NCBI GenBank assembly: GCA_018897105.1 | Contig: JAHILF010000066.1 | Location: 15,021-79,020 of the forward strand | Length of the DNA: 64,000 nucleotides | From: Pseudomonadota bacterium | GTDB lineage: Bacteria > Desulfobacterota > Desulfobulbia > Desulfobulbales > SURF-16 | Direction of reading: 5' to 3' | Shown here: piece by piece, positions 8,663 through 54,987 of the stretch | Numbering within the stretch: the stretch's first letter is position 1 | How the letters are laid out: each line of letters begins with the position of its first letter | Notes under the pieces: generated by a model | What the model saw: the letters and a program-made list of their open reading frames with translations, nothing else | Told to the model about the DNA's origin: nothing | The model's database searches: none | Made by a program: the position numbers and the translations under genes

Positions 8663-8663
8663 T

Positions 8664-8708: not shown

Positions 8709-8737
8709 TTCCTGCCGTTGCGTAAACTGTCTTCTTT

Positions 8738-8811: not shown

Positions 8812-8898
8812 CCCCGAGAATTTCATAGCAGCGAAGCAGCATTATTAATCCCATTAGTCTCTTTGATCATGCCGTTCGGACCAGTCAAACCAAACCAA

Positions 8899-9993: not shown

Positions 9994-10051
9994 GAAATGA
10001 TCGCTCCCTTGCAAGTTTTGCTGCGTATGCCAGCACCACGCAACGTATTTG

Positions 10052-13130: not shown

Positions 13131-13230
13131 CCGGGGCTCAGTCACATTTTGGCACTGAACCCTCATAACTACGGTAAAAAACAGAACCGCATTTCCCTCT
13201 TCCTTTAACTGCATCCATCGGAGTTTTATC

Positions 13231-16118: not shown

Positions 16119-16119
16119 C

Positions 16120-37835: not shown

Positions 37836-37890
37836 CGATGATGTTTGCAGAAAGTACTCCATAAAGTCAAAGTACCAACGTGAAGACAAA

Positions 37891-39574: not shown

Positions 39575-39639
39575 CAGATTCCGCCCTTACATAAACCGCG
39601 AGAACCAAAAAACTTATCGGATGAAACCGGAGCCGCACC

Positions 39640-40641
39640 ATGAACGAGAGCACTATCCACACCATACTTTTTGTCGATGATGAAAAAAGCATCTTAAAGG
39701 CCTTACACCGTATTTTCCTGGACGAGAATTACCATGTCCTCACCGCCGGAGGCGGCCAGGAGGCGCTTGATCTGCTCCAGACCGGAGAGAAACCAGCCGT
39801 GATCATCTCTGATCAGCGCATGCCCGGCATGGGCGGCGCTGAGTTCCTTGCCAAGGCCAGAAAAATTCTGCCGGACAGTATCCGCATGGTGCTCACCGGT
39901 TATGCCGATATCAATGCCGCCATGGAATCCATCAACCAGGGCGGGATATACCGCTATATCCTGAAACCTTGGAACGACGAGGAACTGAGGCTTGCCGTCA
40001 AAGACGCGGTTTTAATGTTTGACCTGATTAAGCAGAACAAAAGACTGACCATGGAGCTGGAGAAAAATAACCTTGCCCTGGTTGAGCTGAACACCTCTCT
40101 TGAACAGAAAGTGACGGAAAGGACCAGGGCGTTGAGCCAGATTATCCGGGAACTGGAAGGCAGAGACCGCATACAGCAATATCTGATGGAGGTTCACCCC
40201 TTAGACGAGCTTCTGCAGACCATTCTCAGCGTGGTGCATGAGGTTGCCAATATTTCCGGCTGCGCGTTCTTTCTGCAAGCCGATGATGATCGCGCGGAAC
40301 CCGCGCCTGCTGCGGCGGTCAATTTTGCCGAACGGCTGGACACAGACAACCATCAGGCGCTGGCCGAGGCGGTGCAGCAGGTCATGACCGCTGATGCGCT
40401 GAAAAATCAGACAATCCTGATCGGGCAATACAGCTATGTTGCCGTGCCGGTCCGTAAAGGCAGCAAAAATTTCGGAGCACTGGTCGTTAAAACGAACGGC
40501 GAGACCCCCTTTCACGAAAATACAATCCGGACCATCATCAGCTTTGCCAACCAGGCTGCTATCGGCATTCATGACTGCAAGTTTCAGGAAAACTTTGATG
40601 ATATCGAGGCCTCACTCGATGATGTTCTGTCGACCCTTTAA
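39640..40641 (+). CDS. Response regulator: REC (KPWNDEEL type) plus coiled coil plus a GAF-like domain
   Basis: ILFVDDEKSILKAL..ISDQRMPGMGG..YILKPWNDEEL. The C-terminal ~150 aa are GAF-like. Confidence 0.8.
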   Translation: MNESTIHTILFVDDEKSILKALHRIFLDENYHVLTAGGGQEALDLLQTGEKPAVIISDQRMPGMGGAEFLAKARKILPDSIRMVLTGYADINAAMESINQGGIYRYILKPWNDEELRLAVKDAVLMFDLIKQNKRLTMELEKNNLALVELNTSLEQKVTERTRALSQIIRELEGRDRIQQYLMEVHPLDELLQTILSVVHEVANISGCAFFLQADDDRAEPAPAAAVNFAERLDTDNHQALAEAVQQVMTADALKNQTILIGQYSYVAVPVRKGSKNFGALVVKTNGETPFHENTIRTIISFANQAAIGIHDCKFQENFDDIEASLDDVLSTL

Positions 40642-40695
40642 TGACAAAGGGCGACTGAAAAAAGTATCCGCCGCACTTAATTACCGGAGCCCCGC

Positions 40696-42840
40696 GTGAG
40701 CCCTGCCAAGAAAAAATCCTTTGAATCCCTTGAAGACGCCTATCTGAAGGCTCTTGACCTTGACGAGAAACCGGAGGAAGAGAAAGACAGGCCCTCATCT
40801 ACCCAGGATCAGCAGGATCTCACTGCCTCCCTGCAGAGGGTAAAGGCATGGCAGGGCAAGGAACTTCTCCTCTCTCCGGACAATATGTCCGTTACTCTGG
40901 TGCTGACGGGTGGAGAACCGATTACCGCGACGCAGATCAAGCTTGCCCTGGAACAGTCCGGCATCATTTACGGCATCAGTCCCGGCGCGCTGCAGAAAGT
41001 GGAAGAGATCTCCCGCTCACCGGAAAAGACGGGAAAATTTCTCCTTGCCGCCGGAACTCACCCGCAAATAAGCCGCAGGATCACATTCCCCTTTTTAACA
41101 AACAGACCTGATGCAGGGCACACCATGCACCAGGCAGCGGCAGAACTCGATTGCGCCGCGCTGCAAAACCTGTTTTCCGCTCCCGACCTGATCGCTGTCC
41201 ATGCCGCCGCACTGCTGGTCAAGGCAGTGAATGCCGGAGAGGTGCTGCTGAAAATACAGGAAAACCCCGATGCCCAACCCGGCCGGGATATTTACGGCCA
41301 TGAAATCGAATGTATTGCCGAACCCTTGCCTGGAGGAGGCGACAATGTAGTATTTAATGTAACAGGCTGGAGTTACGAGGCAACGGCATATGGCTACCTC
41401 CTCGTTGCCGAAAACACCCTGTCCGTTCTCCCTCCTCTGTGGATAACAGCCGACCGAAACGCCGCCTATTATCTTTGCCTTCCCCAGCTTGCTCCCTGCA
41501 GATACCCTACCACAATCGATATAAGCGAGATGCTGCTGAAGGCGGGCATCCATGAAAAATGTATTGATCCTGCCGCCATTGAAAACATGGTGGCACAGAT
41601 GGCCGCAGGCCTCACCCTTCCCCGCACGATCAAACTGGCCGAAACAGTGCAACCCCTACACGGGCATGCCGCCACCTTTTCTCTTTCCTTTGATGCGGCA
41701 AAGAAAGCCGGGGCGCTGCGCCATGACGGTTCACTTGATCTGCGGGAGCGAAACGCCGTGGTCAGCGTTTCCGCGGATACCCTTATTGCCGAAAAGAATC
41801 TGGCGACCATAGGTGTTGCCGGATGCACGCTTTTCGGCAAACCCATCAAAGCTACCCCGGGTGTTGACAAGAAAATCAGCATCGGCCAAGGGGTCAGGGT
41901 TGAAGAGAAAAAAGACGTCATCCGCTATTTTGCCGAAAAAAACGGCAACGTCAAATTCAGCAAAAATACCCTCGCCGTGCAGGACATATTCGAAATTTCC
42001 GGCGATATTGACTATTCTACTGGAAATATAAACGTAAAAACCGACCTGTTGATCAAAGGATCGGTTCTCAGGGGCTTTACCGTCAAATCCGAGGGTGACA
42101 TCGCCATCATGGGCGCCGTGGAGAACGGGGCAACCGTCATTGCCATGGGAAACCTGACAGTGGACAAGGGGATCATCGGCGAAAACAGCAAGGTTGTCAG
42201 CCGCGGCAATCTCCGCACAGGCTATATCCAGGACGCGGAGGTGATCGTCAAGGGGGATGTGATCATCGGCAGCTATCTCTTCAACTGCATGCTCATCGCC
42301 AGCGGCAGCATCACCGTCCTCAGGGAGCAGGGGCAAAAAAGAAGCGGCAGGGTGGTGGGCGGCATTATCTGTTCAGCGAAAGGTATCAGGTTGAGCACCA
42401 TCGGCAGCCCCGGCAAACCGGGGACAGTTGTCGCCCTGCGCACTGATCCGGAAATCGTGGCCGGCTTGAAAAAACTGGAAGAACAGCTCTTGTCCTGCAC
42501 CAGCAATATCACCAAAATCTCACGCAGCCTTCCCTTTGATTCGTTCGATGCCGGTCAGATAAAAGCCGCTCTGGCCCGCATCCCCGCCGCCAAGAGGGAT
42601 GGCCTCGTTCTGCTGTTAACCAACCTGAACAAACTGATCAAACACAGGAAAACCCTGTCGGAAACAATGGAGCAGTTACGCAGCCGCATTGATCTTTCTT
42701 TACACAATGCCCGCATTGAGGTGATCCAGGAAATTTTTCAGGGAAGTGAGATTCACATCGGCGGCCAGCACTTCATTATACCCCAGGATATGGGGCCCTC
42801 TCTCTTTAAGTTGCATGACGGGAAAATCATCCGCGCCTGA
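40696..42840 (+). CDS. DUF342/FapA-family protein (beta-helix C-terminal region)
   Basis: 714 aa with a GTG start. Repetitive G-x-I/V-x-V beta-helix-like stretch (GDIDYSTGNINVKTDLLIKGSVLRGFTVKSEGDIAIMGAVENG..). The assignment is from overall pattern, not an HMM. Confidence 0.65.
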   Translation: MSPAKKKSFESLEDAYLKALDLDEKPEEEKDRPSSTQDQQDLTASLQRVKAWQGKELLLSPDNMSVTLVLTGGEPITATQIKLALEQSGIIYGISPGALQKVEEISRSPEKTGKFLLAAGTHPQISRRITFPFLTNRPDAGHTMHQAAAELDCAALQNLFSAPDLIAVHAAALLVKAVNAGEVLLKIQENPDAQPGRDIYGHEIECIAEPLPGGGDNVVFNVTGWSYEATAYGYLLVAENTLSVLPPLWITADRNAAYYLCLPQLAPCRYPTTIDISEMLLKAGIHEKCIDPAAIENMVAQMAAGLTLPRTIKLAETVQPLHGHAATFSLSFDAAKKAGALRHDGSLDLRERNAVVSVSADTLIAEKNLATIGVAGCTLFGKPIKATPGVDKKISIGQGVRVEEKKDVIRYFAEKNGNVKFSKNTLAVQDIFEISGDIDYSTGNINVKTDLLIKGSVLRGFTVKSEGDIAIMGAVENGATVIAMGNLTVDKGIIGENSKVVSRGNLRTGYIQDAEVIVKGDVIIGSYLFNCMLIASGSITVLREQGQKRSGRVVGGIICSAKGIRLSTIGSPGKPGTVVALRTDPEIVAGLKKLEEQLLSCTSNITKISRSLPFDSFDAGQIKAALARIPAAKRDGLVLLLTNLNKLIKHRKTLSETMEQLRSRIDLSLHNARIEVIQEIFQGSEIHIGGQHFIIPQDMGPSLFKLHDGKIIRA

Positions 42841-42956
42841 ATGTTTTACGCCACCAACCCTCACCAGATGGACAAACCGTTGCCACCATTCTTTGTCGAC
42901 GTAGATTGTTGATGCACTCCTTGAAGATATGCGACTCAAACAGGGATAAAAATGGT

Positions 42957-42984
42957 TTGACATCACCATTTAAAAAATTATAGC
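42957..42984 (+). promoter_or_regulatory. Candidate sigma70-type promoter TTGACA-N16-TATAGC upstream of the hydrogenase genes
   Basis: Read directly. It is about 155 nt upstream of the large-subunit ATG in a 298-nt AT-rich gap. Confidence 0.3.
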
Positions 42985-43138
42985 TTATCCTAATGAGTCT
43001 GTCAGAGTTATACGGTTGTTTTTCTTAAGAGAACAACCTCGTAGAAGTCGACCGATAATTTTTTTTAACAATTATGTCACTCGTTGTTTGCAGGTTTCTT
43101 ACCCCAGACTGTTTAAACCATCCAGAACAGGTTGAATC

Positions 43139-44650
43139 ATGAAAATCGAACTTGGCCCCCTGTCCCGCATTGAAGGTCACCTCAATGTCAAGACGACCGT
43201 CACCGACAATGTCGTTGTGGATGCCCAGTGCGTCGGAGAGATGTTTAGGGGATTTGAGGTGATACTGAGAGGCCGTGACCCCCTCGATGCCCAGCAGATC
43301 ACCCAAAGAATCTGCGGAGTGTGCCCCTATGCCCATGCCATTGCCTCTTCCTATGCCCAGGAAAACGCCTACGGCATCACTCCGCCCGCCAATGGCCGCA
43401 TCCTGCACAACCTGATTCAGGGGGCCAACCATCTTTACGACTACCTCCTGCATTTCTATCAGCTTTCAGCCCTCGACTTTGTCGATATTACCGCCATTGC
43501 CAACTACAAAGGATCGGACGCTGAACTCGTCCAGGTGAAAGATTGGGTCAAGGCGGAATTGGCCTCGAAGAAGGCCTTTCCCGGCGCCCCGTTTCTCCCC
43601 CGTCTTGAAGGGCAATACATAAAGGACGATGACCTCAATATAGGAGCGCTCAAGCACTATATCGAGGCCATGGAGATACAGAAGAAGGCTATTCGGGCAT
43701 CAGCGATCTTTGGTGGCAAATTTCCCCACGCAACCGGGATATTCCCCGGCGGTTGCAGCCAGAAGCCGACTATAGACCATATCTCTGCCTATCAGGCCTT
43801 GATCGAGGAAGTCAGAGATTTTATCCATCAGAAATATATCCCCGACCTCCTGGCCGTCGCCCAGGCATTCCCTGAATACTGGCACATCGGCCAGAGTCGC
43901 GGCGGCTTCATGTCCTTTGGCCTGCTCCCCTTCGCTCCGGCGAGCGGCAGTCGGCGGCTGTTCGCCTCGGGCTTGCTGCTGGACGGCAAAGTCCAGCCTG
44001 TCGATTTTGGTCTTATCACCGAAGATGTCAGATACGCCCGCTACTCATCAGCCAGCGGCCTCAACGTCAAGGAAGGGGAGCTGATCCCTGACCCTGAAAA
44101 AAATGGGGCCTACACCTGGATCAAGGCGCCGCGCTATAACGGGCAGATGGTCGAAGTCGGGCCAGCGGCCAGGATTCTGGTCGACTATCGGCAAGGGAAC
44201 AACCAACAGGTGACCACACTGGTCAATCACTTCGCGGGCCTGGCCGGCATCAGTGCCAATGAGTTGAACTCCGTCCTGGGCCGTCATCTCTGTCGAGCGA
44301 TCTGCGCGGTTGTTATTGCCGACTTTCTGCTGGAGGAAACCGAAAGGATCAACCCGGGCGCCCCGGCCTCACTCGAACTTGAAATCCCCGCCACCGGCGA
44401 AGGCTTCGGCGCTACCGAGGCCTCCCGTGGGGCACTTTTGCACTATATCCGTCTGCAGAATCATAAGATCGAGAAATATGAGTGCGTGGTGCCGACGACA
44501 TGGAACTGCTCCCCCCGCGACGATCAGGGGAATCCCGGAGCAATGGAATCGGCTCTGATCGGCACCAAGGTGGCGAACCAGGCAGTACAGATTGAATCGG
44601 TACGGATAGTCCACTCTTTTGATCCATGCCTGGCCTGTGCCGTCCATTAA
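43139..44650 (+). CDS. [NiFe] hydrogenase large subunit, sensor-like (no C-terminal maturation extension)
   Basis: RIEGH; N-terminal ligand motif RICGVCPYAH; C-terminal DPCLACAVH immediately followed by TAA. 503 aa. Confidence 0.9.
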   Translation: MKIELGPLSRIEGHLNVKTTVTDNVVVDAQCVGEMFRGFEVILRGRDPLDAQQITQRICGVCPYAHAIASSYAQENAYGITPPANGRILHNLIQGANHLYDYLLHFYQLSALDFVDITAIANYKGSDAELVQVKDWVKAELASKKAFPGAPFLPRLEGQYIKDDDLNIGALKHYIEAMEIQKKAIRASAIFGGKFPHATGIFPGGCSQKPTIDHISAYQALIEEVRDFIHQKYIPDLLAVAQAFPEYWHIGQSRGGFMSFGLLPFAPASGSRRLFASGLLLDGKVQPVDFGLITEDVRYARYSSASGLNVKEGELIPDPEKNGAYTWIKAPRYNGQMVEVGPAARILVDYRQGNNQQVTTLVNHFAGLAGISANELNSVLGRHLCRAICAVVIADFLLEETERINPGAPASLELEIPATGEGFGATEASRGALLHYIRLQNHKIEKYECVVPTTWNCSPRDDQGNPGAMESALIGTKVANQAVQIESVRIVHSFDPCLACAVH

Positions 44651-44665
44651 CAAGAGGCTTCTTCG

Positions 44666-45574
44666 ATGCTGAACAGACGTGAATTCATGACCATGGCTGC
44701 CGCACTCTGCACCGCCTTTGGTGTGAGCAACCTCCCCGAACCCGTAGCCGCTGCACTCAAACAGATCGACCCTCGGACCATTCCCAAACTGCTCTACCTC
44801 CAGGGCCAGTCCTGCTCGGGATGTTCCATCTCTTTACTCCAGGCCAAGGAACCATCCCCCCTCACCTTGATCACCAGATATTCCCAGCTTGCCTTTCATA
44901 CCGATCTTTCGGCGACCAGCGGCTCACAGGCCATGAATCTTATCGAGCGTTATCTCGCCGGTGAGGCTGGGCAATACATCCTGGTCCTGGAAGGGGCCAT
45001 CCCGGAGAAAATGCCATCGGCCTGCATGATTGGCGATAAGCCCCTGGCCAGCCTACTCGAATCGGGAGGCAGGACCATGACAGCCGCCATTGCCATTGGC
45101 GCCTGCGCCTGCGATGGCGGAATCCCCGGGGCGGAAGGGAATTTAACCGGCGCTATCGGCTTGCCGGAATTTTTTGCCCAGCGGAATATCGAAAAACCAC
45201 TGATCCAGATCCGGGGCTGTTCCGTTCATCCTGACTGGGTCTGGCAGACAGTAGTCCACCTGGTCAAAGTAGGGATGCCCGAGCTTACTGAAACAGATTC
45301 ACCCAAGCTCTTTTTTAACCGCAGCATCCATGATGCATGCCCCAGGTACCACGACTTCCAGGAAGAAATTTTTGCGGAGAAACTGGGAGATAGCGGTTGT
45401 CTCTTTAAGCTTGGCTGCCTCGGTCCACAGACTAAGGCAGATTGTTCCAGCCGTTGGTGGAATGGCGGGCAAACCTGGTGTATCAATGTCAATGCTCCCT
45501 GCATCGGCTGCGCATCCCCCCTCTTTGCCCGACAAAAAAACATGCCGTTCTATCGCATGAAGAAAAAAGCGTGA
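44666..45574 (+). CDS. [NiFe] hydrogenase small subunit with a twin-arginine leader and ligands for three FeS clusters
   Basis: [24 protein letters not shown]; [10 protein letters not shown]; GACACDGG; GCSVHP; [10 protein letters not shown]; [17 protein letters not shown]; [12 protein letters not shown]. Confidence 0.9.
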
Positions 45575-45617
45575 CCAGATTCCCAAAAATGCACCCTGCC
45601 CAGGAGGATATACGGCC

Positions 45618-47279
45618 ATGAACAAATCTTTGCTTGCCAGCCGGTCGATAACCGTAAAACTGGTTGTTTCAGTTGTGGTGACGCTGTTCGCTGCGATACT
45701 TGTCGGCACGCTGCTGCTGAACAACTATGTCCGCAGTGAGATGACCAGCGCCTACATGATTTCCGTCAACAACCTGGCCCAGTCTCTCCAGCAGGGAGTC
45801 AAGGATTCGCTGGAACGAGGGCAGATGGGGAGTTTCCAAAAGCTTCTCCTGCGCCAGAAAGACATTCGAGGGGTAGTGGATGTCTCTTTGTATGACCGGC
45901 AGTTACATGGCAACCTCTCCTCCTCCGAGAAATCCATCAAAGGGCAAACCTTGCCGGATGAGTTAAAAAAGGAGCTACTGTCCATCAAAGAACCGCTGGT
46001 CAAAATCAGCCCCAAGTCGATTCAGATATACACTCCGCAAATGGTGACGCAGGACTGTATCCGTTGCCATCCCTTCTGGCAGGAGAATGAACAGGGCGGA
46101 ATGATTGCGCTCACCTTCGACTTGACCCCCTTGCATCAAGCGCTGGGGAAACAGAAAGTTATGCTGAGCGTGGGCAGTCTTGCCCTGATTATGATTGTCA
46201 GTGCCATAATCTTTCTCCTGGCGCGTTCACTCACCAAGCCGGTGGTGCAGATGACCAAGGCCATGGTGCGTCTGGCCGACGGCGATTTGCGCGTCGAAAT
46301 CCCGGCCCAGGATAGAAAGGATGAAATCGGCGAGATGGCCGCCGCTGTCCAGGTCTTTAAAAACAACGCACTCGACCGACAACGTCTCACGGCAGAACAA
46401 GAGGCAGGAAAACAGCGGGCCGCCCTGGAAAAAACAGCCCTCATGAACAAACTTGCCGCTGATTTTGAAGCCAATATCGGCGGGCTCATCAGCGGGGTAA
46501 CGGCAGCGGTCGCCCAGCTGGAGGCAAACGCAAAGAAAATGGCCGACAATGCTTCCCAGACCAAGACAAAATCCGATTCTGTGGCCATGGCTGCGGCGAA
46601 TACATCCGCCAATGTCATGACCGTTGCCTCGGCCACGGAAGAACTATCAAACTCGGTGAGTGAAATCAGCCACCAGGTCGCTAAGTCGGCTGGGGTCGCC
46701 CGCAATGCGGTGCAAAAGGCCAGTCACACCAACCAGATGGTCGGCAGCCTGGCAAATTCCTCAAAAAAAATCGGCGAAGTCGTCAAACTGATTACTGATA
46801 TTGCCGGACAGACCAAACTGCTGGCTTTGAACGCCACCATCGAGGCGGCCCGGGCCGGTGAGGTCGGCAAAGGCTTTGAGGTGGTGGCCAACGAGGTCAA
46901 AGAATTGGCTAAACAGACCACCGCCGCCACCAAAGAGATCAGCGATCAGATCGCCGACATTCAAGGGGCGACCAACGAGGCAGTCGAGGCAATTCGCGAC
47001 ATTGGCGCCACCATCGGCGAGATCGATGAGATTTCGACAAGCATCGCCGCTTCGGTTGAGGAGCAGGGAGTTGTCACCCTGGACATTGCCAAGAATACCC
47101 AACAGGCGGCAACCGGGTCCAAGGCGGTATCCGGCGACATCTCCATCGTCGCTGCTGCAGCCGACGAAACCGGGGTGACTGCCGCTTACGTTTTGGACGC
47201 CGCCTCCGCTCTCAGCCAGAAGGCCAATGCCCTGCGCCATGATGTCACCCTTTTCCTTGAGACCATCAGGTCGTCCTAA
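45618..47279 (+). CDS. Methyl-accepting chemotaxis protein with a periplasmic CxxCH (haem c) sensor domain, HAMP and MA domains
   Basis: TM1 at aa 13-34. The periplasmic loop contains DCIRCH (C147/C150/H151). TM2 at aa 181-202. HAMP ([12 protein letters not shown]). Signalling hairpin [34 protein letters not shown]. Confidence 0.9.
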
Positions 47280-47291: not shown

Positions 47292-50200
47292 ATGGCATTC
47301 ATTGACGACGACGAAACATTACAGTCCTTCAAGGACGAATCCCACGAGCATCTGGACGGAATTGAAAACGACCTCCTTGCCATTGAGGAGGCTGGCGCCG
47401 ATATCGATCTTGAATTGGTCAACAAGGTCTTCCGCGCCATGCACTCCATCAAGGGTGGCGCCGGTTTCCTGGGTCTCAATGCGGTAAAGACCCTGGCTCA
47501 TGCCGCTGAAAACCTGTTGAATAAAATTCGTAATAAGGATCTCGTGCCGACCACCCCGGTCATCAGCGGTCTCCTGGATGCGGCCGACCTCGTCAATCGC
47601 TTGCTGAACCAGCCGAAAGGGGCCGTTGAACTTGACATTTCCGGCCCCCTGGCTGCTCTGAACAGCATCCTCTCGCCCGAATCTGATCAAGCTGCCCCAC
47701 CACCTGGTGTTTCCCATGCAAACAAGCCCGGCACGCCCGGTCAGCCAGCTTCCTGGCAGGGCCTGCTTACAGAGCACAGTGCCGAGATCGCCGACAATCG
47801 TCTGGGCGGATTCGGAATCTTTGTCCTCGAGTTCGAACGGAGCAGCGATGGCGAACAACAGGGGCTTTCCCCAACCATCCAAACAACTCTCGAGAGTATC
47901 GGTCAGGTTCTCGGCAGCCAAACCGACGACAGTTCGGCAGCCTCCCCTCAACCTACCTATGTCCTCTACGCGACCATGATGGAAAGGGATATGCTCGTAT
48001 CCTTTGCCGGTCTACCACCGGAACGGGTCCATGAAATCCAGGAACAGGCGGAACCTGCCCCCGCCTCGCCTGTTCCGACGGTTGAACCGAGCCCCATCCC
48101 GGCACCGGTGGCAGAAGAATCGCCGTCACCATCGCCGTCGAAAAACGTGGCTGCCGACAGTGCCCCGCAAACCAAAGCTGGAACGGACAGCAGCCTTCGG
48201 GTCAACATCAAAATCCTTGATAACCTGATGACCCTGGCGGGAGAGCTGGTGCTGACCCGCAATCAGTTTCTGCAAATCGTCCACTCCTCCCACCAGCAAA
48301 TCTTTGACGCCGTCTCCCAACGCTTTGACCTGGTCACCTCCGAACTCCAGGAAGCCATCATGTGCACCCGTATGCAACCGGTTGGCAACATTTTCAATAA
48401 ATTCAAACGCGTGGTTCGGGATTTGGCCCATAAACTTGGCAAAGAGATCGATCTGGTCTTGGAAGGCGGTGAGGTCGAAATGGATAAGACCATCATCGAG
48501 GCCTTGACCGACCCCCTGACCCATCTGGTACGCAACTCCGTTGACCACGGCATCGAAACACCGGACAAGCGAACAGCAGCCGGCAAAACACCCTGCGGCA
48601 CACTTCAGATCAAGGCCTTTCATGAAGGAGGCCAGGTCATCATCGAAATAGTCGATGACGGTGGCGGTATTGATACTGCCCGAATCAAAGAAAAGGTCTT
48701 GAGCATGGGCACCCATGACAAGTCCCAGATCGAAGCAATGCAGGAACATGAGCTTTTGCGGCTCATCTTCCTGCCCGGTCTCTCCACCGCCAAAGAGGTG
48801 ACCGATGTCTCTGGACGAGGCGTGGGCATGGATGTGGTGCATGCCAACCTCTCCAAGGTGGGCGGCGTCTTCGACATCGCCAGCAAACTGGGCAAAGGCA
48901 CCACCATCACCATCAAACTGCCCTTAACCCTGGCCATTATCCCCAGTCTGATCGTCAGTGTCGGCACCGAACGCTATGCCATCCCGCAGGTTAACATGGT
49001 CGAGTTGGTACGGGTGCCGGCATCCAAGGTCAAACAGCGAATCGAGAGGATCGACGAGGCGCTGGTGATCAGACAGCGCGGCAGGCTCTTGCCACTCATC
49101 AGTCTGGCCGAGGCGCTGGGTATCGAAAAACGCTACTATCAAGTCCCTAAAACGAAGCAGGTCAAGGTCTGCCAGCGGCAATTGATCGAAGACCGCCGGA
49201 GCTGCACCGCGCCCTCGGGTGAAGACAGTGAGAACTTGACCTCTGCCGGCTTCGGAGTCACTACAGGCGTCTCTGAAGTTAACCAGGAAAATCGTGAGAG
49301 TCCAGACCGTCGCACAAGCCCGCAAAGCGCCGTCAATATCGTTGTTGTCTCGGTGGGTAAATTTCATTACGGCCTGATTGTTGACAAGCTGCTTGATTCG
49401 GAAGAAATCGTGGTTAAGCCCCTGGGCTCACATCTGCGTCAATCTCAGCTCTATGCCGGCGCTACCATTCAGGGCGACGGCAAGGTGGCACTGATCCTTG
49501 ATGTGGTGGGAATCAGCAAGTTCATGAACCTCTCGTCGGGCTCCGTCCGGGTGCGTGATAGAGGGCCACAGGAAACCGAACGAATCAATCCGGATGCTCA
49601 GACCTTGCTTCTGGTCCGAAACTCGCCCAAAGAACAGCTGGCCATCCCCTTAAACCTGGTCTCCCGGATCGAAGAAATACAGCGCGATCAAGTTGAACTT
49701 ACCGGCGGCAGAAGCAATATGCAGTATCGAGGCTCAACCCTGCCCCTGTTTTCTATTAATGAGGTTGCAAAGGTTGCCCCTCTCCAGGAGGACAGCAGCA
49801 ACCTCTATGTGGTGGTCTTTCCTTTTGGTGAACGAGAAGCCGGGATCATGGTGTCGGAGATCATCGATATCGTCACCGTGATCGGCGGCCTTGATGATAC
49901 GACTCACAAACAACCAGGTATCATGGGTTCGGTCATTATCATGAAAAAAATCACCATGCTAGTCGATCTCTTTGGCATCGTTGCCGCAATGATGCCGGAG
50001 TGGATCCGGCACACCAGCCTTGGCACCAAAAGCGGCCAGGGTCAACATATCCTGGTGGTGGAAGATTCGCCATTTTTTAACCGCCAGATCTGCGGGTTCG
50101 TCTCGGATGCCGGGTACAAAGTCTTCAGCGCCACCGATGGTGTTGAAGGTCTTGCCCTTCTCGAGCGTGAAAAAATTGACCTCATCCTCACCGATATCGA

Positions 50201-50421: not shown

Positions 50422-50877
50422 ATGCAGCCATCACCTACCGCCAATGCCACCAAGCGCAAACTGGCCCTGTTTGAATCCGGGCATCTTCTTTGCGGCCTCG
50501 ATATCATCCATGTGCAGGAAATTAATAAAAATATCGCTGTGACTGCTGTCCACCGCGTCCCCGACTATGTGCGGGGGGTGATCAACCTGCGGGGAGAGAT
50601 TGTGACAGTGGTTGATCTGCGCACAAAATTCGGTTTTGCCCCCCTAGCTCAGGAGGCCGAAGAACAGATTGTCATAGTCCGACTCGGCGATGAGAATATC
50701 GGACTCCTGGTGGACTCGGTCAGCGATGTGGTGATCGCTGATGAAAAAGATATTGAACCCACACCCCCAAATCTGGCAGGGGTGCCAGGGCACTTCTTCA
50801 AAGGTATCTATAAACTTGAACAAAGCCTGGTTGCTATCTTAAATATAGAAAAGCTTCTGGCCAGAGAATTCGAATAG
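50422..50877 (+). CDS. cheW: CheW coupling protein
   Basis: [42 protein letters not shown]. Confidence 0.9.
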
Positions 50878-50909: not shown

Positions 50910-52184
50910 ATGTCGCTCAGCACAAAACTCTTTACGGCCCTTGCGGTCACAGCATTGCTGGCGGCAAGCCTGGTTGCCGCCAATCTGTATGGTGCCAGCG
51001 CTTATCTTCAATGGGCGGTCACCCTGACCATGGAGATCCTTCTGGCATGGGCCTTTGTCCTGGCGCTCTCCCTGACCAATGACCTGAGGCGCATAGGGGT
51101 TGTTTGCCGAAAGACAGTTTCGGGCAGTCCAGCCTCAATTGCCGGAACTGCGAATGATAATGATTTGGCCGCTATCGATGCAGCGCTGACGAAAAATGCA
51201 GCCGACTATCAAGAACTTGCCACCACACTCCGGCAAGGAGTCGAAGAACTGATCGCACAGGGCTCAGGACTGTCCTCCCTGGCTGCACAGTCAATGGCAA
51301 AGCTTCATTCAGCCTCAGCAATTTCGTCTTCGGCGGAAGCAGCCATCAAGACCCTGGCCCTTCATGCCGCTACTGTAGCCAGTCGCTTTGAGAGATTGAA
51401 TGCCGGCATGGGCACGGCTACCAACACCGCCAGCGAGTCGGCAGCGCAAGTCAGCATGATTATTGGCGCCACGGAAAAAATGAGCGCCACCATTGCGAAC
51501 ATTGCAATAAGTGCGGAAAAGGCCAGGAGTGTGGCAGGTGCTGCGGTCTCCAATGTCAATGCGGCCTCAAACCGGGTGGACGAACTGGGTGCCGCCGCCT
51601 TGGAAATCAACAAGGTAACGGATGTTATCGTTGAAATCGCTGAACAAACGAAACTGCTGGCTTTAAACGCCACCATTGAGGCCGCTCGAGCCGGTGAAGC
51701 GGGCAAAGGATTCGCCGTCGTCGCCAACGAGGTCAAGGAACTTGCACTGCAAACCAATAACGCTATCGCCGAAATCTGCAACAAAGTCGAGGCAATGCAG
51801 AACTCAACCGACAACACGATCGCTGAAATCGGGGCCATCAATCAGTCCATCAAGGCCGTGAACGAAATTGTAGTCACCATCGCCGGCGCCGTGGATGAGC
51901 AATCGATCCCCACCAAAGACGTGGTCAGGCAGTTAAATCAATGGGTGAAGGGCATCAATATCATCAAGGAAGCGGTAAACGCCGCTGTAGCAGAAGTAAA
52001 AGAAACATCCGTCAACATCAACAAAGTAGCCGCGATCTCTCAGGAACTGGCTGAAGAATTCGCCGCTGTCGCCCCGAGGGACGAAGACCTCTCCCCACTT
52101 CTCGCCTCCATAAAGCAACAGTCCGATGACCTGCAGTCTACCGGCGAAAAATTACTCGCCAAAATAGACGGTGAACAGCTTTGA
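50910..52184 (+). CDS. Methyl-accepting chemotaxis protein without a periplasmic sensor or HAMP (two closely spaced TM segments plus MA domain)
   Basis: [34 protein letters not shown]. The N-terminal hairpin of TM helices has only a short loop. Confidence 0.88.
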
Positions 52185-52197: not shown

Positions 52198-53037
52198 CTA
52201 TTCCCTTCCCTTTTGGAAATAGATCGTATTGCAACTCTCGTTTCTGATAAAACGGTCGCTGATGCCAAAAATTGACTCCGTAGAACCGATGATCAAAACG
52301 CCTTCCGAGCGGAGACAGGTGGCCATCGTTTGAAATAACCGACGCCGATTTTTCTGATTGAAATAGATTGCCACGTTGCGGCAGAGAATAATATCATACA
52401 CACCAGGTCCCTCGGGGGCGGCGAGGAGATTCGTCTTATTAAATACGGTCATGGCCCGCAAATCGGCCCTGACTTTCAATAATTCTCCCTGAGACTCGAA
52501 ATATTTCCGACAAAGACCAAGGGGCACCCCTCGTTCCACCTCATAGCGGGTGTAGAGCCCTTTTTGGGCCTTCTTGATGGCAACATCTGAGATATCAGTA
52601 CCGGTTATGGTGATATGCCACCTCTTCATTTCGTCGCCAAGAAGTTCCGCGATGATCATGGCTAGAGAGTAAACCTCCTGCCCGGTTGAGCAGGCAGCGC
52701 TCCAGATCTGCAGCCTGGGCGGGGTTGGGTCGCTTCCGTTTTGTCGTTTGCCAAAAAATTCGGGCAAAATCTTTGCCTGTAGCAACTCAAAGGGCCGCTG
52801 GTCGCGAAAAAACGAAGTTTCGTGGGTAGAAATGGCATCCACAACCCGAGCCTCCCATTCCTCTGAGCGGTAGCCGGCATAAAAAAACTCAGCGAAGCTC
52901 TTGGCTCCATACTCATCCAGCAACGGCCCCAGGCGGCTTTCCAGGAGATAAGCCTTGGTGCTGTTTAAGACAATTCCACTGCGGGCGTGAATGAACTCCG
53001 CAAACAGCTTTACCTCTTCGGGCGTGATGGAAATCAT
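52198..53037 (-). CDS. cheR: Chemotaxis protein methyltransferase CheR
   Basis: THETSFFRD, IWSAACSTGQEVYSLAM, IILCRNVAIYF. ATGA overlap with cheB. Confidence 0.92.
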   Translation of the reverse strand: MISITPEEVKLFAEFIHARSGIVLNSTKAYLLESRLGPLLDEYGAKSFAEFFYAGYRSEEWEARVVDAISTHETSFFRDQRPFELLQAKILPEFFGKRQNGSDPTPPRLQIWSAACSTGQEVYSLAMIIAELLGDEMKRWHITITGTDISDVAIKKAQKGLYTRYEVERGVPLGLCRKYFESQGELLKVRADLRAMTVFNKTNLLAAPEGPGVYDIILCRNVAIYFNQKNRRRLFQTMATCLRSEGVLIIGSTESIFGISDRFIRNESCNTIYFQKGRE

Positions 53038-54119
53038 CTCACCCTTCTCATAATTTCAGGGCCTATGTCGGCCAGGGGTATCACCGCATCGACAACCCCG
53101 GCCTTCACGGCTTCCATGGGCATACCGTAAACGATACAGCTCGCCTGATCCTGGGCAATGACCTGGGCGCCCTGCCGTTTCATCAGGCGTAAGCCGTGCG
53201 TGCCATCACAGCCCATGCCGGTCATAATGACACCAAGGGACTGTCCCTTGCACACTGAAGCAACGGAGCGGAACAAATAATCAGCAGACGGTTGACAATA
53301 ATTTTCCGGAGGGTCGTCGGTAACCTCCAGCACATAATGCGACTGACCCTGTCCGTGGGCAACCCGCATCTGCCTGCTTCCCGGCGCAATATAGGCTGTC
53401 GCAGCTTGCAAAACCTGGCCGGCCTGCCCCTCCACCACGCGAATGGAGCACTTGCTGTCCAGGGATTCAGCCAGGGCACCGGTAAAAAACTTTGGCATAT
53501 GCTGCACGATGACAATCGGCACCGGGAAATCAGCAGGCAGGCGAGGCAGGAGATCGGCTAAGGCAACTGGGCCCCCCGTTGAAATGCCGATGGCCACAAT
53601 CTTAATCCCTGCGGTGCGATGTTCTGTAGATTGTCTAATGATACCTGTCGCTGGAGGAGCTCCAACAGGCTTGGAGTCCATACCGCCAATAGTCTGACGC
53701 AGAATCTTTTGCGCCATAACGGCATTGAGGATGGGACGAAACTTACCGGCCAGCATCTGGAAATTATGTTGCGGATCATCGCCGTCAGGCTTGGTTATAA
53801 AATCATAGGCCCCCAACTGCAAAGCCTCCAAAGTGATCGCGGCACCCTGCCGGGTATGGGTGCTTACCATCAACACCAATGCCTTGGACTTGATTTCCTG
53901 CAGTTTTTTCAAGGTGGTCAGGCCATCCATGACCGGCATTTCCACGTCCAGCGTGATCAGGTCCGGGTTCAGCTGAGCGACTTTAGCGAGCGCGATTTCC
54001 CCCTGGGACGCCGTGCCGACCACTTCCACACCCGGAATGGCAGTCAGAATCTCGTAGATAATGGTTCGATACAGTATGGTGTCATCGACCACAAGTACCC
54101 GCAATAGTTCATGAGACAT
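53034..54119 (-). CDS. cheB: Chemotaxis response regulator protein-glutamate methylesterase CheB
   Basis: REC (RVLVVDDTILYR..TLDVEMPVMDG) plus methylesterase (GISTGGPVAL, VQHMP, MTGMGCDG). The start is taken as the ATG at 54117-54119 (MSHELLRVLVVDD). The ATG at 54137 is also possible, and the track start at 54155 is a TTG. Confidence 0.9.
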   Translation of the reverse strand: MSHELLRVLVVDDTILYRTIIYEILTAIPGVEVVGTASQGEIALAKVAQLNPDLITLDVEMPVMDGLTTLKKLQEIKSKALVLMVSTHTRQGAAITLEALQLGAYDFITKPDGDDPQHNFQMLAGKFRPILNAVMAQKILRQTIGGMDSKPVGAPPATGIIRQSTEHRTAGIKIVAIGISTGGPVALADLLPRLPADFPVPIVIVQHMPKFFTGALAESLDSKCSIRVVEGQAGQVLQAATAYIAPGSRQMRVAHGQGQSHYVLEVTDDPPENYCQPSADYLFRSVASVCKGQSLGVIMTGMGCDGTHGLRLMKRQGAQVIAQDQASCIVYGMPMEAVKAGVVDAVIPLADIGPEIMRRVR

Positions 54120-54606
54120 AATTTCCTGGTTTGGCATGGGCTCCAGTTGCAGCAAAAAAATAATTCCACAATCGGGAACGATTCAGGGGGTAATGTTCCG
54201 GTTTCACTTTCCAGGAGTAAAGGACGCTTTGAGTCTCTCTCCCGAACAGTCAGCACGATGTGAATTTTGAGAAAAGCAAGCTTGACTTTTCCTTTGTTCA
54301 CCCCCTATGCTTAAAAAAAGCAAACTGTTCGTGGCTCTCTGTATCTTTATAGATTAATGGCAAAATTAATTTTCCCAGCAAGAAATCTGTCTGCGTTGCT
54401 AAGAACATACAAGAGAAAAAGTGCTACAGGATGCTAACGTTACAGTTGAGAATTCACCGTTTCCTATAGGAGAACAACTGAACATCTATCGAACGCTTAC
54501 AATTTTGACCGGCTTTGCCCCACTTGATGCCCCAGGCGAGCGATTGCAAGAAACTCGAAGCCATCGGGGTTCCCCCCCCCTCAAACTTCAAAAAAAGATA
54601 AAAAAT

Positions 54607-54987
54607 ATGAGATTTTTAGTAGTCGACGACTTCGACACCATGATAAAAATTACCAAGAATGTCCTAGATGATTTAGGATATAACGATGTTATCACAGCCC
54701 GCAATGGAGAACAAGCATATCAGATTCTCACTAAGGAAAAAATTGATTTCATCATTTCAGACTGGAACATGCCGGTCATGACCGGCATCGAACTCCTGAA
54801 GAAAGTAAGGGGCAACCCTAAATTAGCCCATATCCCCTTTTTGATGGTGACAGCCGAATCTGAGAAGGATCATATTGTCGAGGCAATTCAGGCGAAGGTG
54901 GACCAATACATCCTCAAACCATTTAATCAAGAGATGTTAGCCCAAAAAATCGGTTTTATCCTGCATAATAAAAAAGAGAAAGCCTGA
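54607..54987 (+). CDS. cheY: Single-domain CheY-like response regulator
   Basis: MRFLVVDDFDTMIKI..IISDWNMPVMTG..YILKPF. The 62 upstream codons of the track ORF are unsupported. Confidence 0.88.
   Translation: MRFLVVDDFDTMIKITKNVLDDLGYNDVITARNGEQAYQILTKEKIDFIISDWNMPVMTGIELLKKVRGNPKLAHIPFLMVTAESEKDHIVEAIQAKVDQYILKPFNQEMLAQKIGFILHNKKEKA

What the first reader, a model, noticed from the sequence alone, without database searches (positions are those of the whole stretch)
43139..47279. Candidate H2-taxis module: Tat-exported, sensor-type [NiFe] hydrogenase encoded directly upstream of a haem-c chemoreceptor and CheA
Seen in the sequence: hydL (43139-44650), hydS (44666-45574), mcp (45618-47279), cheA-REC, cheW and mcp follow each other on one strand. 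The gaps are 15, 43, 12, 19 and 32 nt, and most have SD-like sequences (AAGAGG, AGGAGG, GGAG). The window contains no cytochrome b/c3-type redox partner, no hyp genes and no maturation endopeptidase. The enzyme mixes features that are normally separate. Its large subunit is short (503 aa) and stops exactly at the His of DPCLACAVH. That is the hallmark of regulatory HupUV/HoxBC-type and other protease-independent hydrogenases. Its small subunit, however, has an RR leader like periplasmic uptake enzymes, plus ligands for all three FeS clusters. The very next gene is an MCP whose periplasmic loop carries CxxCH.

Inference: the exported hydrogenase reduces the receptor haem, so H2 availability (or periplasmic redox state) is converted into CheA activity.

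Established knowledge: known H2 sensors signal to histidine kinases (HupT/HoxJ). As I recall the published classification, group 2c [NiFe] enzymes are predicted to link to c-di-GMP enzymes, and MCP linkage has only been proposed for [FeFe] group C enzymes. Haem-c MCPs (Desulfovibrio DcrA, Geobacter GSU0582/GSU0935) have no known dedicated reductase. I am not aware of a described hydrogenase/haem-MCP pair.
Basis: partly seen in the sequence, partly recalled or inferred. Interest (0 to 1): 0.9.

Follow-up and report, generated by a model that had tools for sequence, protein, structure and literature searches.

The report
Periplasmic hydrogenase paired with haem chemoreceptor
A hydrogen-splitting enzyme that is exported from the cell is encoded next to a haem-carrying chemotaxis receptor, and this pairing recurs in dozens of sulfur-cycle bacteria, which makes it the best candidate so far for a bacterial hydrogen-gas sensor that steers behaviour.

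Summary
hydL, hydS, a CxxCH chemoreceptor, cheA-REC, cheW and a second mcp lie head to tail at the stated coordinates.

The core hydL-hydS-haem-MCP trio is a conserved cassette, not a local accident:
- It is present in all 16 informative genome loci with HydL at 70% identity or more.
- It is present in 49 of 53 informative metagenome loci found from the sensor domain alone.
- It was recovered in all three reverse look-ups, in unrelated neighbourhoods.
- Deeper lineages (HydL 41-49% identical) keep the same design. One of them replaces the MCP with a histidine kinase that carries the same sensor.

By sequence the enzyme is group-1a-like (periplasmic NiFeSe/NiFe type), not group 2b or 2c. It has a twin-arginine leader, all twelve cluster ligands, a normal Val/Leu gas channel and no C-terminal extension. 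The receptor's periplasmic domain is a single Cache fold with an inserted CxxCH helix ("sCache_heme", like Geobacter GSU0582/GSU0935) and an invariant Met.

The best reading is that H2 oxidation reduces the receptor haem and so modulates CheA. No paper in the searchable library describes such a pair.

Caveats:
- Haem binding, electron transfer and taxis are all untested.
- CheA is adjacent in only about a third of loci.
- The missing C-terminal extension is not specific to sensors.

The parts
42841..43138 (+). 298-nt AT-rich intergenic region upstream of hydL; likely promoter region of the module
   Evidence: Sequence read. A sigma-70-like match lies at 42880-42907, which is a consensus match only. 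No + strand gene lies between fapA and hydL.
43139..44650 (+). hydL: [NiFe] hydrogenase large subunit, 503 aa. L1 motif RICGVC, L2 motif DPCLACAVH, ends at the His with no C-terminal extension.
   Evidence: PF00374 with E 4e-149. Best PDB hits are periplasmic NiFeSe large subunits at 374 bits. NF033181 scores 582.7 against a cut-off of 600. Identity is 33% to HoxC and 35% to HoxG, with Val/Leu at the gas-channel positions.
44666..45574 (+). hydS: small subunit, 302 aa. It has a twin-arginine leader (about aa 1-30, nt 44666-44755, ...PVAAA|LK), ligands for three clusters with a 4-Cys medial cluster, and no membrane anchor.
   Evidence: PF01058 + PF14720. Alignment with HoxK, HoxB and relatives, with the ligand columns. 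No hydrophobic 19-mer above 1.6. The leader is conserved in all 18 triads.
45618..47279 (+). mcp1: methyl-accepting chemotaxis protein, 553 aa. TM1 spans 5-38, the periplasmic sCache_heme domain about 39-178, TM2 179-210, followed by HAMP and the MCP signalling domain.
   Evidence: HAMP + MCPsignal. TM segments. AF2 model with pLDDT 86 and pTM 0.80. Foldseek matches the WalK sCache domain at TM 0.76 and GSU0935/GSU0582 at E about 1e-3.
45825..45827 (+). Met70 codon of mcp1 (motif SLERGQM); candidate distal axial haem ligand
   Evidence: Invariant column M36 in sensor alignment A1. The Met is kept as G(Q/N/E)M in the diverged lineages L104, L105, L099, L106 and L030. The ligand role is an inference by analogy with GSU0935.
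46056..46070 (+). CIRCH (mcp1 residues 147-151): c-type haem attachment motif, in a short helix between two beta strands of the Cache fold
   Evidence: C113, C116 and H117 invariant. Model helix 111-116 lies between strands 100-108 and 125-134. This matches the published sCache_heme definition (PMC12889525).
47292..50402 (+). cheA-REC hybrid kinase, 1036 aa
   Evidence: Hpt, H-kinase_dim, HATPase_c, CheW and Response_reg domains. NCBIfam CheA at 385 bits. It directly follows the haem-MCP in 21 of 59 informative loci.
50422..50877 (+). cheW
   Evidence: PF01584 with E 6e-33.
50910..52184 (+). mcp2: 424-aa MCP with a two-TM hairpin and no periplasmic domain
   Evidence: MCPsignal. TM segments 3-29 and 33-57. 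A similar MCP lies between hydS and the haem-MCP in L048, L054, L058 and L060.
52198..53037 (-). cheR (convergent with the + strand operon)
   Evidence: Translation. The syntenic gene in L003 is annotated CheR_N + CheR and is 70-90% identical in the close loci.
53034..54155 (-). cheB
   Evidence: The syntenic gene in L003 is annotated Response_reg + CheB_methylest and is 74-94% identical in the close loci.
54421..54987 (+). cheY-like single REC protein. The ORF as listed starts at a GTG; the REC domain is at aa 66-177, so the real start is probably the ATG at about 54607.
   Evidence: PF00072 with E 3e-28. ORF.

Best explanation
This is a three-gene signalling cassette whose input is a periplasmic [NiFe] hydrogenase.

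Proposed mechanism:
1. HydS carries a twin-arginine leader and takes HydL with it through Tat.
2. In the periplasm the heterodimer oxidises H2 and passes electrons down its three [4Fe-4S]-type clusters.
3. The acceptor of the surface-exposed distal cluster is the covalently bound c-haem in the single-Cache ('sCache_heme') domain of the receptor encoded immediately downstream. That receptor is usually an MCP and, in one lineage, a histidine kinase.
4. Reduction of the haem, with the associated change in Met70/His151 ligation or spin state, shifts the Cache domain. The change propagates through TM2 and HAMP to the signalling tip and alters CheA-REC activity. CheR and CheB provide adaptation.
5. 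The cell thereby reads H2 availability relative to whatever re-oxidises the haem, and converts it into a chemosensory response.

Shown here:
- the genes, domains, motifs and fold prediction;
- strict conservation of the cassette across lineages down to 41% HydL identity and across unrelated neighbourhoods;
- retention of the sensor while the output module is swapped.

Inferred:
- haem attachment;
- physical docking and direct electron transfer;
- the sign of the response;
- that the output is motility.
For: Forward synteny. All 16 informative genome-contig loci with HydL at 70% identity or more have hydL->hydS->MCP with the same sensor. Two Spirochaetota relatives at 47-48% identity have hydS->hydL and no MCP.

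Reverse synteny.
- Starting from MCP homologues at 39-61% identity (P0378, P0301, P0351), each sits directly after a 503-aa HydL and a HydS of about 300 aa, in otherwise unrelated neighbourhoods.
- A metagenome scan seeded only with the sensor alignment was also run. Of 53 loci with enough upstream DNA, 42 have hydS directly adjacent, 7 have hydLS 1.4-3 kb upstream with another signalling gene in between, and 4 have none.

Deep conservation. L104/L105 (HydL 48-49%), L099 (49%) and L106 (41%) keep four features: L->S gene order, HydL ending at the His, a twin-arginine HydS, and an MCP sensor with G(N/E)M...C(I/V)RCH.

Output swapping.
- L030 (46%) has the same hydL-hydS followed by a membrane HPt/HATPase kinase with a homologous periplasmic domain carrying two CxxCH.
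- Within the main family the sensor is joined to 553-aa HAMP MCPs or to roughly 472-aa MCPs.

Covariation. Pairwise identities of HydL and HydS correlate better with the sensor (r = 0.84 and 0.81) than with the MCP signalling domain (r = 0.72 and 0.65).

Nature of the sensor.
- AF2 model with pLDDT 86.
- Foldseek hits to the WalK sCache domain and to the haem-c domains of GSU0935 and GSU0582.
- 22 of 32 family sensors hit PF21563, best E 1e-7.
- CxxCH and Met70 are invariant.

Thermodynamic plausibility. The published Em values of GSU0582 and GSU0935 are -156 and -251 mV (PMC8396549). My own Nernst estimate puts the H+/H2 couple at about -300 mV at 1e-4 atm H2 and pH 7.

Enzyme competence. L1/L2 motifs, RIEGH, EASRG, all 12 cluster ligands and a Val/Leu gas channel are present.

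No other partner. The window contains no cytochrome b or c3.
Against: - Nothing biochemical was tested.
- By sequence the enzyme looks like a fully catalytic group-1a uptake hydrogenase. It is 46% identical to a cytochrome c3-flanked enzyme and has an open gas channel. It could therefore also, or mainly, feed the general periplasmic cytochrome pool, which is encoded elsewhere in many sulfate reducers.
- The missing C-terminal extension is not diagnostic.
- Four of 53 loci have the receptor without hydLS.
- CheA is adjacent in only 36% of informative loci.
- Characterised sCache_heme domains have been proposed to sense redox state (Geobacter) or to bind NO (Pseudomonas; PMC12889525), not to accept electrons from a dedicated enzyme.
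- The window's own sensor does not reach any Pfam threshold.
- The mirror-tree correlations are confounded by shared phylogeny.
Confidence: 0.6

Rival explanations
1. This is an ordinary energy-conserving periplasmic uptake hydrogenase. It delivers electrons to the soluble cytochrome c3 pool, which is encoded elsewhere. The adjacent haem-MCP is an energy-taxis or redox receptor that equilibrates with that pool rather than with the enzyme. On this reading the genes are co-located for co-regulation, not because the proteins interact.
For: The closest solved and curated relatives are respiratory NiFeSe/NiFe enzymes. The nearest non-family lineage is flanked by two cytochrome c3 genes. The gas channel is Val/Leu and the ligand set is complete. 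The Desulfotignum genome paper lists a soluble periplasmic NiFe 'HydAB' among its respiratory enzymes (PMC4046663), although I could not verify that this is the same family. Respiratory hydrogenase operons in Desulfovibrio also lack their cytochrome c3 gene (my own knowledge).
Against: Co-regulation alone does not explain several observations. The same sensor subfamily follows hydS at gaps of 3-150 nt across HydL divergence down to 41%. The sensor is kept while the output domain changes to a kinase. In none of roughly 70 loci does a cytochrome, HybA or NrfD accompany these enzymes.
Confidence: 0.2
2. The haem-Cache domain is a small-ligand sensor (NO, O2, CO or sulfide). The hydrogenase is an accessory reductase that uses H2 to keep or reset the haem in the ferrous, ligand-competent state. 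H2 is then the reductant and not the signal.
For: sCache_heme proteins from Pseudomonas bind NO in the ferrous state (PMC12889525). DcrA of Desulfovibrio was proposed to sense O2 or redox state (my own knowledge). An obligatory reductase would also give strict synteny.
Against: An invariant Met70 together with His151 suggests a six-coordinate haem, as in GSU0935. That geometry favours redox sensing over ligand sensing (inference). Characterised haem gas sensors do not need a dedicated hydrogenase. The anoxic, H2-cycling habitats of the Desulfobulbales and Desulfobacterales hosts make H2 a sensible signal.
Confidence: 0.13
3. The adjacency is coincidental or purely structural. For example, the MCP merely tethers the soluble enzyme to the membrane, or the CxxCH is not a haem site.
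For: Haem binding is untested. The window's own sensor gives no Pfam hit.
Against: Conservation statistics. The Cache fold with a CxxCH helix in the published position. 22 of 32 relatives hit the haem-sensor family PF21563.
Confidence: 0.04

Closest known systems
Regulatory H2-sensing [NiFe] hydrogenases, group 2b (HoxBC-HoxJ of Cupriavidus necator, HupUV-HupT)
   Same: A two-subunit [NiFe] hydrogenase dedicated to signalling and encoded beside its signal transducer. The large subunit lacks the C-terminal extension. The medial cluster has four Cys ligands.
   Different: Group 2b enzymes are cytoplasmic and have no Tat leader (HoxB lacks one). The small subunit has a long C-terminal extension, the gas channel is narrowed (Ile/Phe), the gene order is small->large, and the partner is a soluble PAS histidine kinase that controls transcription. 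The window enzyme is 33% identical to HoxC, has Val/Leu and is exported. Its partner is a membrane receptor with a periplasmic c-haem.
[NiFe] group 2c, 'diguanylate cyclase-linked (putative)' (HydDB)
   Same: A putative sensory role inferred only from gene neighbourhood, and also reported from aquatic sulfate reducers.
   Different: Group 2c is described as cytosolic, with hupS->hupL order, the L2 consensus SFDxCLVCTVH, and linkage to GGDEF/EAL proteins (PMC4853749; PMC5037454). The window enzyme has SFDPCLACAVH, a Tat leader, L->S order and linkage to an MCP.
[FeFe] hydrogenase group C2, 'chemotactic (putative)' (HydDB)
   Same: A hydrogenase predicted to signal through methyl-accepting chemotaxis proteins.
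   Different: It has a different metallocentre and an unrelated protein family, is cytoplasmic, and involves no haem intermediary.
Haem-c chemoreceptors with sCache_heme / PAS-like domains (Geobacter GSU0582 and GSU0935; Tll0287/DUF3365 family; Desulfovibrio DcrA)
   Same: A periplasmic single-Cache domain with CxxCH on a short inserted helix and a Met in the N-terminal helical region, fused to HAMP and the MCP signalling domain.
   Different: No dedicated reductase or hydrogenase partner has been described for these receptors; the 2026 sCache_heme survey does not contain the word hydrogenase. The subfamily found here is defined by the SLERGQM...DC(I/V)RCHPxW motifs and by obligatory linkage to hydLS.
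Periplasmic group 1a/1b [NiFeSe]/[NiFe] hydrogenases with cytochrome c3 (Desulfovibrio HysAB, HynAB)
   Same: These are the closest sequences: 42-46% identity, a Tat leader, soluble heterodimers and, in the NiFeSe type, a 4-Cys medial cluster.
   Different: They have small->large gene order and a 14-15-aa C-terminal extension removed by an endopeptidase. Their partner is a tetrahaem cytochrome c3 and their role is respiratory.

Membership tests
[NiFe] hydrogenase (large + small subunit) | Large-subunit L1 (RxCGxC) and L2 (DPCxxCxxH) Ni-Fe ligand motifs; small subunit of the Oxidored_q6 type with FeS ligands | tested here: met
   RICGVC and DPCLACAVH are present. PF00374 hits at E 4e-149, together with PF01058 + PF14720.
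Group 1 periplasmic uptake [NiFe] hydrogenase (1a-like) | Twin-arginine signal peptide on the small subunit | tested here: met
   MLNRREFM... aligns with the HoxK SRRSFLK motif. An ...AAA|LK cleavage-like site follows. The leader is conserved in all triads.
Group 1 periplasmic uptake [NiFe] hydrogenase (1a-like) | Closest sequence similarity to group 1 references | tested here: met
   PDB scores: NiFeSe 374 bits, 1b 354, 1c/1d/1e 245-283, 2a 193, 1h 132. NF033181 scores 582.7 against a cut-off of 600, just below threshold. Identity to HoxC (2b) is 33%. The HydDB classifier itself could not be run.
Group 1 periplasmic uptake [NiFe] hydrogenase (1a-like) | C-terminal extension on the large subunit that is removed by a specific endopeptidase | tested here: not met
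   The ORF ends at the His codon followed by TAA, 15 nt before hydS. The same holds in all 18 triads and in all diverged module lineages.
Group 1 periplasmic uptake [NiFe] hydrogenase (1a-like) | Operon-encoded or dedicated respiratory redox partner (cytochrome b, cytochrome c3, or HybA/HybB) | tested here: not met
   None is present in the window or in any family locus. A partner encoded elsewhere cannot be excluded.
Group 2b regulatory hydrogenase (HoxBC/HupUV) | Cytoplasmic: small subunit without a Tat leader but with a C-terminal extension of about 50 aa | tested here: not met
   HydS has the leader and ends 20 aa after the last ligand. HoxB shows the opposite pattern.
Group 2b regulatory hydrogenase (HoxBC/HupUV) | Narrowed gas channel (Ile/Phe at HoxC positions 62 and 110) | tested here: not met
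   Val and Leu in the window enzyme and in nearly all relatives.
Group 2b regulatory hydrogenase (HoxBC/HupUV) | Large subunit without a C-terminal extension | tested here: met
   However, the feature is shared with non-signalling relatives.
Group 2c putative DGC-linked hydrogenase | L2 consensus SFDxCLVCTVH; cytosolic; GGDEF/EAL neighbour | tested here: not met
   The window has SFDPCLACAVH, a Tat leader and an MCP neighbour. No group 2c reference sequence was available for a direct alignment.
sCache_heme (Tll0287/DUF3365, PF11845; PF21563 Mcp40H-20_sensor) | Single-Cache fold with a short helix carrying CXXCH inserted between beta3 and beta4; extracytoplasmic location | tested here: met
   In the AF2 model (pLDDT 86) helix 111-116 carries C113-H117, between strands 100-108 and 125-134. 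Foldseek hits WalK sCache, GSU0935 and GSU0582. The domain lies between two TM segments. The definition comes from PMC12889525.
sCache_heme (Tll0287/DUF3365, PF11845; PF21563 Mcp40H-20_sensor) | Significant match to the family profile | tested here: inconclusive
   The window's own sensor gives no Pfam hit at E <= 10. Among 32 relatives, 22 hit PF21563 (best E 1e-7) and 18 hit PF11845, at E <= 1. A profile search against PDB sequences found nothing significant.
sCache_heme (Tll0287/DUF3365, PF11845; PF21563 Mcp40H-20_sensor) | Covalently bound c-type haem | not testable with these tools
   This needs a haem stain, mass spectrometry or UV-vis spectroscopy of the expressed domain.
Methyl-accepting chemotaxis protein / Che pathway | HAMP + MCP signalling domain, with CheA, CheW, CheR and CheB encoded alongside | tested here: met
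   Whether the pathway controls flagellar motility was not tested.

The most novel reading that the evidence does not exclude
These cassettes define a previously unrecognised, phylogenetically deep class of periplasmic H2-sensing [NiFe] hydrogenases. They are wired by direct electron transfer to the c-haem of Cache domains in chemoreceptors and kinases. That would make them the first molecularly defined H2 chemoreceptor system, and the first case of a Cache sensor whose 'ligand' is an electron delivered by a dedicated enzyme.
Probability: 0.5. Interest if true: 0.9.

Novelty: new variant of a known kind. Interest (0 to 1): 0.8.

Why it matters
H2 is a central currency of anoxic ecosystems. Taxis towards H2 has been shown only once, in Methanococcus maripaludis, and the receptor there is unknown (PMC3817446). 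The known H2 sensors are cytoplasmic, control transcription, and belong to a different hydrogenase group.

A periplasmic hydrogenase hard-wired to a haem chemoreceptor would have several consequences:
- It would explain how sulfate reducers, sulfur disproportionators and their relatives locate H2 sources or syntrophic partners.
- It would give the orphan haem-c MCPs (DcrA, GSU0582, GSU0935 and the large sCache_heme family) a concrete mode of input.
- It would show that hydrogenases classified by sequence as 'respiratory group 1' can be signalling devices, which affects metagenomic inference of H2 metabolism.
- It would raise a maturation puzzle, namely Tat export of a large subunit that has no C-terminal extension.

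The cassette is small and modular, so it is directly testable and could be reused as an H2 biosensor.

Tried and rejected
1. Group 2c membership. Rejected on the L2 motif, the Tat leader, the gene order and the neighbour type. The defining paper (Greening 2016) and Pereira 2011 are not in the held library.

2. Group 2b membership. Rejected.

3. 'No C-terminal extension means sensor'. Rejected as a rule. P0128 (L->S order, followed by a HybA-like protein, NrfD and cytochrome c3), P0129 (next to MTHFR/FTHFS) and P0146 (TatC-S-L) also lack the extension. In total 21 of 83 full-length 50%-cluster representatives end at the His.

4. Sequence-only identification of the sensor led nowhere. phmmer and a profile search against PDB gave only chance hits. 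Pfam on the window sensor gave nothing. The fold search and scanning all family members were needed.

The full-length MCP query worked.

6. The NJ tree is rough: BLOSUM distances and no support values. I use it only to say that the module lineages and one c3-linked lineage cluster together, far from HoxC. I do not claim monophyly of the signalling-linked enzymes.

7. Ten literature searches found no description of a NiFe hydrogenase / haem-MCP pair. Absence from an open-access library is not proof of absence.

8. I considered modelling a HydS-sensor complex as a linked chimera. I did not run it, because the tool returns no coordinates or PAE, so an interface could not be judged.

Full report
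**1. The observation**

- hydL 43139-44650
- hydS 44666-45574
- mcp 45618-47279
- cheA-REC 47292-50402
- cheW 50422-50877
- mcp2 50910-52184

The gaps are 15, 43, 12, 19 and 32 nt. Pfam confirms every assignment. AAGAGG precedes hydS and AGGAGG precedes mcp. cheR and cheB follow on the opposite strand, then a cheY-like gene.

A 298-nt AT-rich gap separates the cluster from an upstream fapA / REC-GAF / REC / HDOD block.

HydL ends ...DPCLACAVH-TAA. The Sec-equivalent codon is TGC, and only 15 nt remain before hydS, so the missing C-terminal extension is genuine.

HydS begins MLNRREFM, which aligns with the Tat motif of HoxK. It has all twelve cluster ligands. C272 replaces the Pro that makes the medial cluster a 3Fe-4S in HoxK, so the medial cluster is 4-Cys as in NiFeSe enzymes. 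HydS has neither a C-terminal membrane anchor nor the long tail of the regulatory small subunit HoxB.

The MCP has hydrophobic segments at 5-38 and 179-210, with CIRCH at 147-151 between them.

The window holds no hyp gene, endopeptidase, cytochrome b or cytochrome c3. The rest of it encodes futalosine-type menaquinone synthesis, an arn-like operon, a class II ribonucleotide reductase and many two-component proteins.

The window is 87-95% identical at the DNA level to contigs of uncultured Desulfobulbales / Desulfurivibrio-like MAGs.

**2. What kind of hydrogenase**

The best solved relatives are periplasmic [NiFeSe] and [NiFe] enzymes of Desulfovibrio and relatives (374-354 bits). Group 2a Huc scores 193 bits. 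The NCBIfam NiFeSe-type model scores 582.7 against a cut-off of 600.

I fetched HoxG (group 1d) and the regulatory HoxC (group 2b) from megaplasmid pHG1. HydL is 35% identical to HoxG and 33% identical to HoxC. At the two gas-channel positions where HoxC has Ile and Phe, HydL has Val and Leu, as catalytic enzymes do.

Group 2c is described as cytosolic, hupS->hupL, with L2 consensus SFDxCLVCTVH (PMC4853749). HoxC has the related ...CMVCTVH. HydL has SFDPCLACAVH.

By sequence, therefore, this is a group-1a-like periplasmic enzyme and not a group 2 sensor. The one sensor-like sequence trait is the absent extension. That trait is not specific: 21 of 83 full-length 50%-cluster representatives also end at the His, and three that I looked up are not signalling-linked.

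**3. The decisive evidence is comparative**

HydL belongs to a large, tight family. The 120 best hits are almost all 503 aa long and 70-92% identical. They come from Desulfobulbaceae, Desulfurivibrio, Desulfobacter, Desulfobacula and Desulfotignum. The nearest full-length relatives outside the family drop to 46-48% identity.

Forward test. In all 16 informative loci from a scan of species-representative genomes, hydL is followed by hydS and then by an MCP with the same periplasmic domain, which is 42-94% identical to the window's. Two Spirochaetota relatives (47-48%) have the classical hydS->hydL order and no MCP.

In 18 triads, HydL always ends at the His, HydS always starts with a twin-arginine motif, and the MCP always has CxxCH at about residue 147.

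The neighbourhoods outside the three genes are unrelated.

Reverse test. Starting from MCP homologues at 39-61% identity always led back to hydL-hydS immediately upstream.

A metagenome scan seeded only with sensor motifs gave 72 loci. Of the 53 with at least 1.1 kb upstream:
- 42 have hydS directly adjacent;
- 7 have hydL-hydS 1.4-3 kb upstream, with a hairpin MCP (and once a REC protein) in between;
- 4 have none.

The collections overlap in part, so these counts are not fully independent.

**4. The design is older than the family and independent of the output**

Three further MCP-linked lineages share every feature: L104/L105/L102 (HydL 48-49% identical), L099 (49%) and L106 (41%, 485 aa). 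The shared features are:
- L->S gene order;
- no C-terminal extension;
- a Tat leader on HydS;
- a downstream MCP whose sensor carries G(N/E)M ... C(I/V)RCH.

In L030 (46%) the gene after hydS encodes a 763-aa membrane protein. Its periplasmic domain is homologous to the MCP sensor (SIEKGQRKTF..., CTVCHTYWQTGETAGVLGV) and has a second CxxCH. It is fused to an HPt-like region and HATPase_c, and is followed by CheX and a REC protein.

By contrast, P0121 (46%) is hydS->hydL, has a 14-aa extension, and sits between two cytochrome c3 genes.

In a rough NJ tree these lineages cluster together, far from HoxC.

Within the main family, pairwise identities of HydL and HydS track the sensor (r = 0.84 and 0.81) better than they track the MCP signalling domain (r = 0.72 and 0.65). 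This is suggestive only, because shared ancestry contributes.

CheA directly follows the haem-MCP in 21 of 59 informative loci. These fall into two arrangements: the window type, and a Desulfobacteraceae-like type hydL-hydS-mcp(hairpin)-mcp(haem)-cheA-cheW-cheB-cheR.

**5. The sensor**

In an alignment of 32 diverse sensors the invariant residues are Ser-Leu, Gly, Met (= Met70 in SLERGQM), Phe, Pro-Gln, Cys113, Cys116, His117, Trp120 and Gly127.

Sequence searches against PDB find nothing, and the window domain has no Pfam hit. However, 22 of 32 relatives hit PF21563 (the Geobacter class-40H MCP sensor) and 18 hit Tll0287-like.

The AF2 model is confident (pLDDT 86, pTM 0.80). It shows a long N-terminal helix, a second helix starting at the invariant Met, and a beta sheet. 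The CxxCH lies on a short helix between two strands.

Foldseek puts the WalK single-Cache domain first (TM 0.76). The haem-c sensor domains of GSU0935 and GSU0582 follow at E about 1e-3.

This is exactly the 'sCache_heme' architecture defined in a February 2026 preprint, which proposes NO binding for Pseudomonas members and never mentions hydrogenases (PMC12889525).

The Geobacter domains have Em values of -156 and -251 mV (PMC8396549). By my own Nernst estimate the H+/H2 couple is about -300 mV at 1e-4 atm and pH 7. A haem of this kind could therefore be reduced at environmentally low H2.

**6. Mechanism and rivals**

The most economical reading is a dedicated periplasmic H2 input: HydSL oxidises H2, its distal cluster reduces the receptor haem, and the redox and ligation change is transmitted through HAMP to CheA (confidence about 0.6).

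Rival explanations:
- The enzyme is a normal uptake hydrogenase and the MCP samples the cytochrome pool (0.2).
- The haem senses a gas and the hydrogenase merely keeps it ferrous (0.13).
- The adjacency has no functional meaning (0.04).

Things that remain unexplained:
- how an exported large subunit matures without its extension;
- why the gene order is inverted;
- what re-oxidises the haem;
- the four receptor loci that lack hydLS.

**7. Novelty**

HydDB lists only [FeFe] group C2 as 'chemotactic (putative)' and [NiFe] group 2c as DGC-linked.

Taxis to H2 has been demonstrated only in Methanococcus maripaludis, with no receptor identified.

Database names for these proteins are generic. One genome paper lists a soluble periplasmic NiFe 'HydAB', which may belong to this family, as respiratory.

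None of ten full-text searches found a description of a hydrogenase / haem-MCP pair.

I therefore class this as a new variant of a known kind: a sensory hydrogenase joined to a haem-c receptor. It is strongly supported as a conserved genetic module, but its biochemistry is still hypothetical.

Noticed in passing
L030:8001-14046: A sister module with a kinase output. hydL (517 aa, no extension) and hydS (Tat leader) are followed by a 763-aa membrane protein. Its periplasmic domain is homologous to the MCP sensor but has two CxxCH motifs, and it is fused to an HPt-like region and HATPase_c. CheX and a REC gene follow.
   Followed up: partly
window 50910-52184; L048:4525-5832; L058:3037-4314: mcp2 is a two-TM hairpin MCP with no periplasmic domain. 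In Desulfobacteraceae-like loci a similar 425-435-aa MCP lies between hydS and the haem-MCP, so it may be a regular companion of the module.
   Followed up: partly
L106:4234-5772; L023:1-3700: Further haem-Cache (Tll0287-like, PF11845) signalling proteins lie close to these hydrogenases. One is a histidine kinase 1.2 kb upstream in L106. Another is a 1905-aa multi-PAS protein on the opposite strand in the Desulfobulbus locus.
   Followed up: no
P0128 contig (no DNA held); L107; L108: Large subunits that end at the His also occur in non-signalling contexts: with L->S order followed by a HybA-like protein, NrfD and cytochrome c3; next to MTHFR/FTHFS; and after TatC. Protease-independent maturation may be commoner in group-1-like enzymes than is assumed.
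   Followed up: partly
L043, L069, L075, L079: Four metagenome loci carry the same haem-MCP subfamily (45-66% sensor identity) with no hydLS in the 2-6 kb upstream. L043 keeps cheA downstream but has a 765-aa REC protein upstream instead.
   Followed up: partly
window 44666-45574 (HydS residue 149): There is an extra Cys two residues after proximal-cluster ligand C147 (GACAC). It is present in some family members (L002, L013) and absent in others (L001 has CATH). Its significance is unknown.
   Followed up: no
window 37888-42840: The upstream block of HDOD protein, REC protein, REC-GAF protein and a 714-aa FapA-family protein is conserved with the module only in the closest clade (L004, L006, L007, L022). 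It may belong to the same chemosensory or motility system.
   Followed up: partly
window 2478-10014 and 10990-19525: The first stretch is a futalosine-type menaquinone biosynthesis cluster: UbiA, UbiE, a VitK2_biosynth protein, two radical-SAM CofH/MqnC-like proteins and an amidohydrolase. The second is an arn-like lipid A modification operon: a DegT aminotransferase, a GT2, an ArnA-like formyltransferase-epimerase fusion, a deacetylase and two PMT-type transferases.
   Followed up: no
L001:13957-16818: In the Desulfobacter genome a GGDEF/EAL protein and a FIST protein are encoded convergently, right after the triad. This is a possible reason why related enzymes could be read as 'DGC-linked'.
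   Followed up: no
L004:10001-11545; L006:10001-11545: HydL is 514 aa in these two close relatives, because of an 11-residue insertion relative to the window's 503 aa.
   Followed up: no
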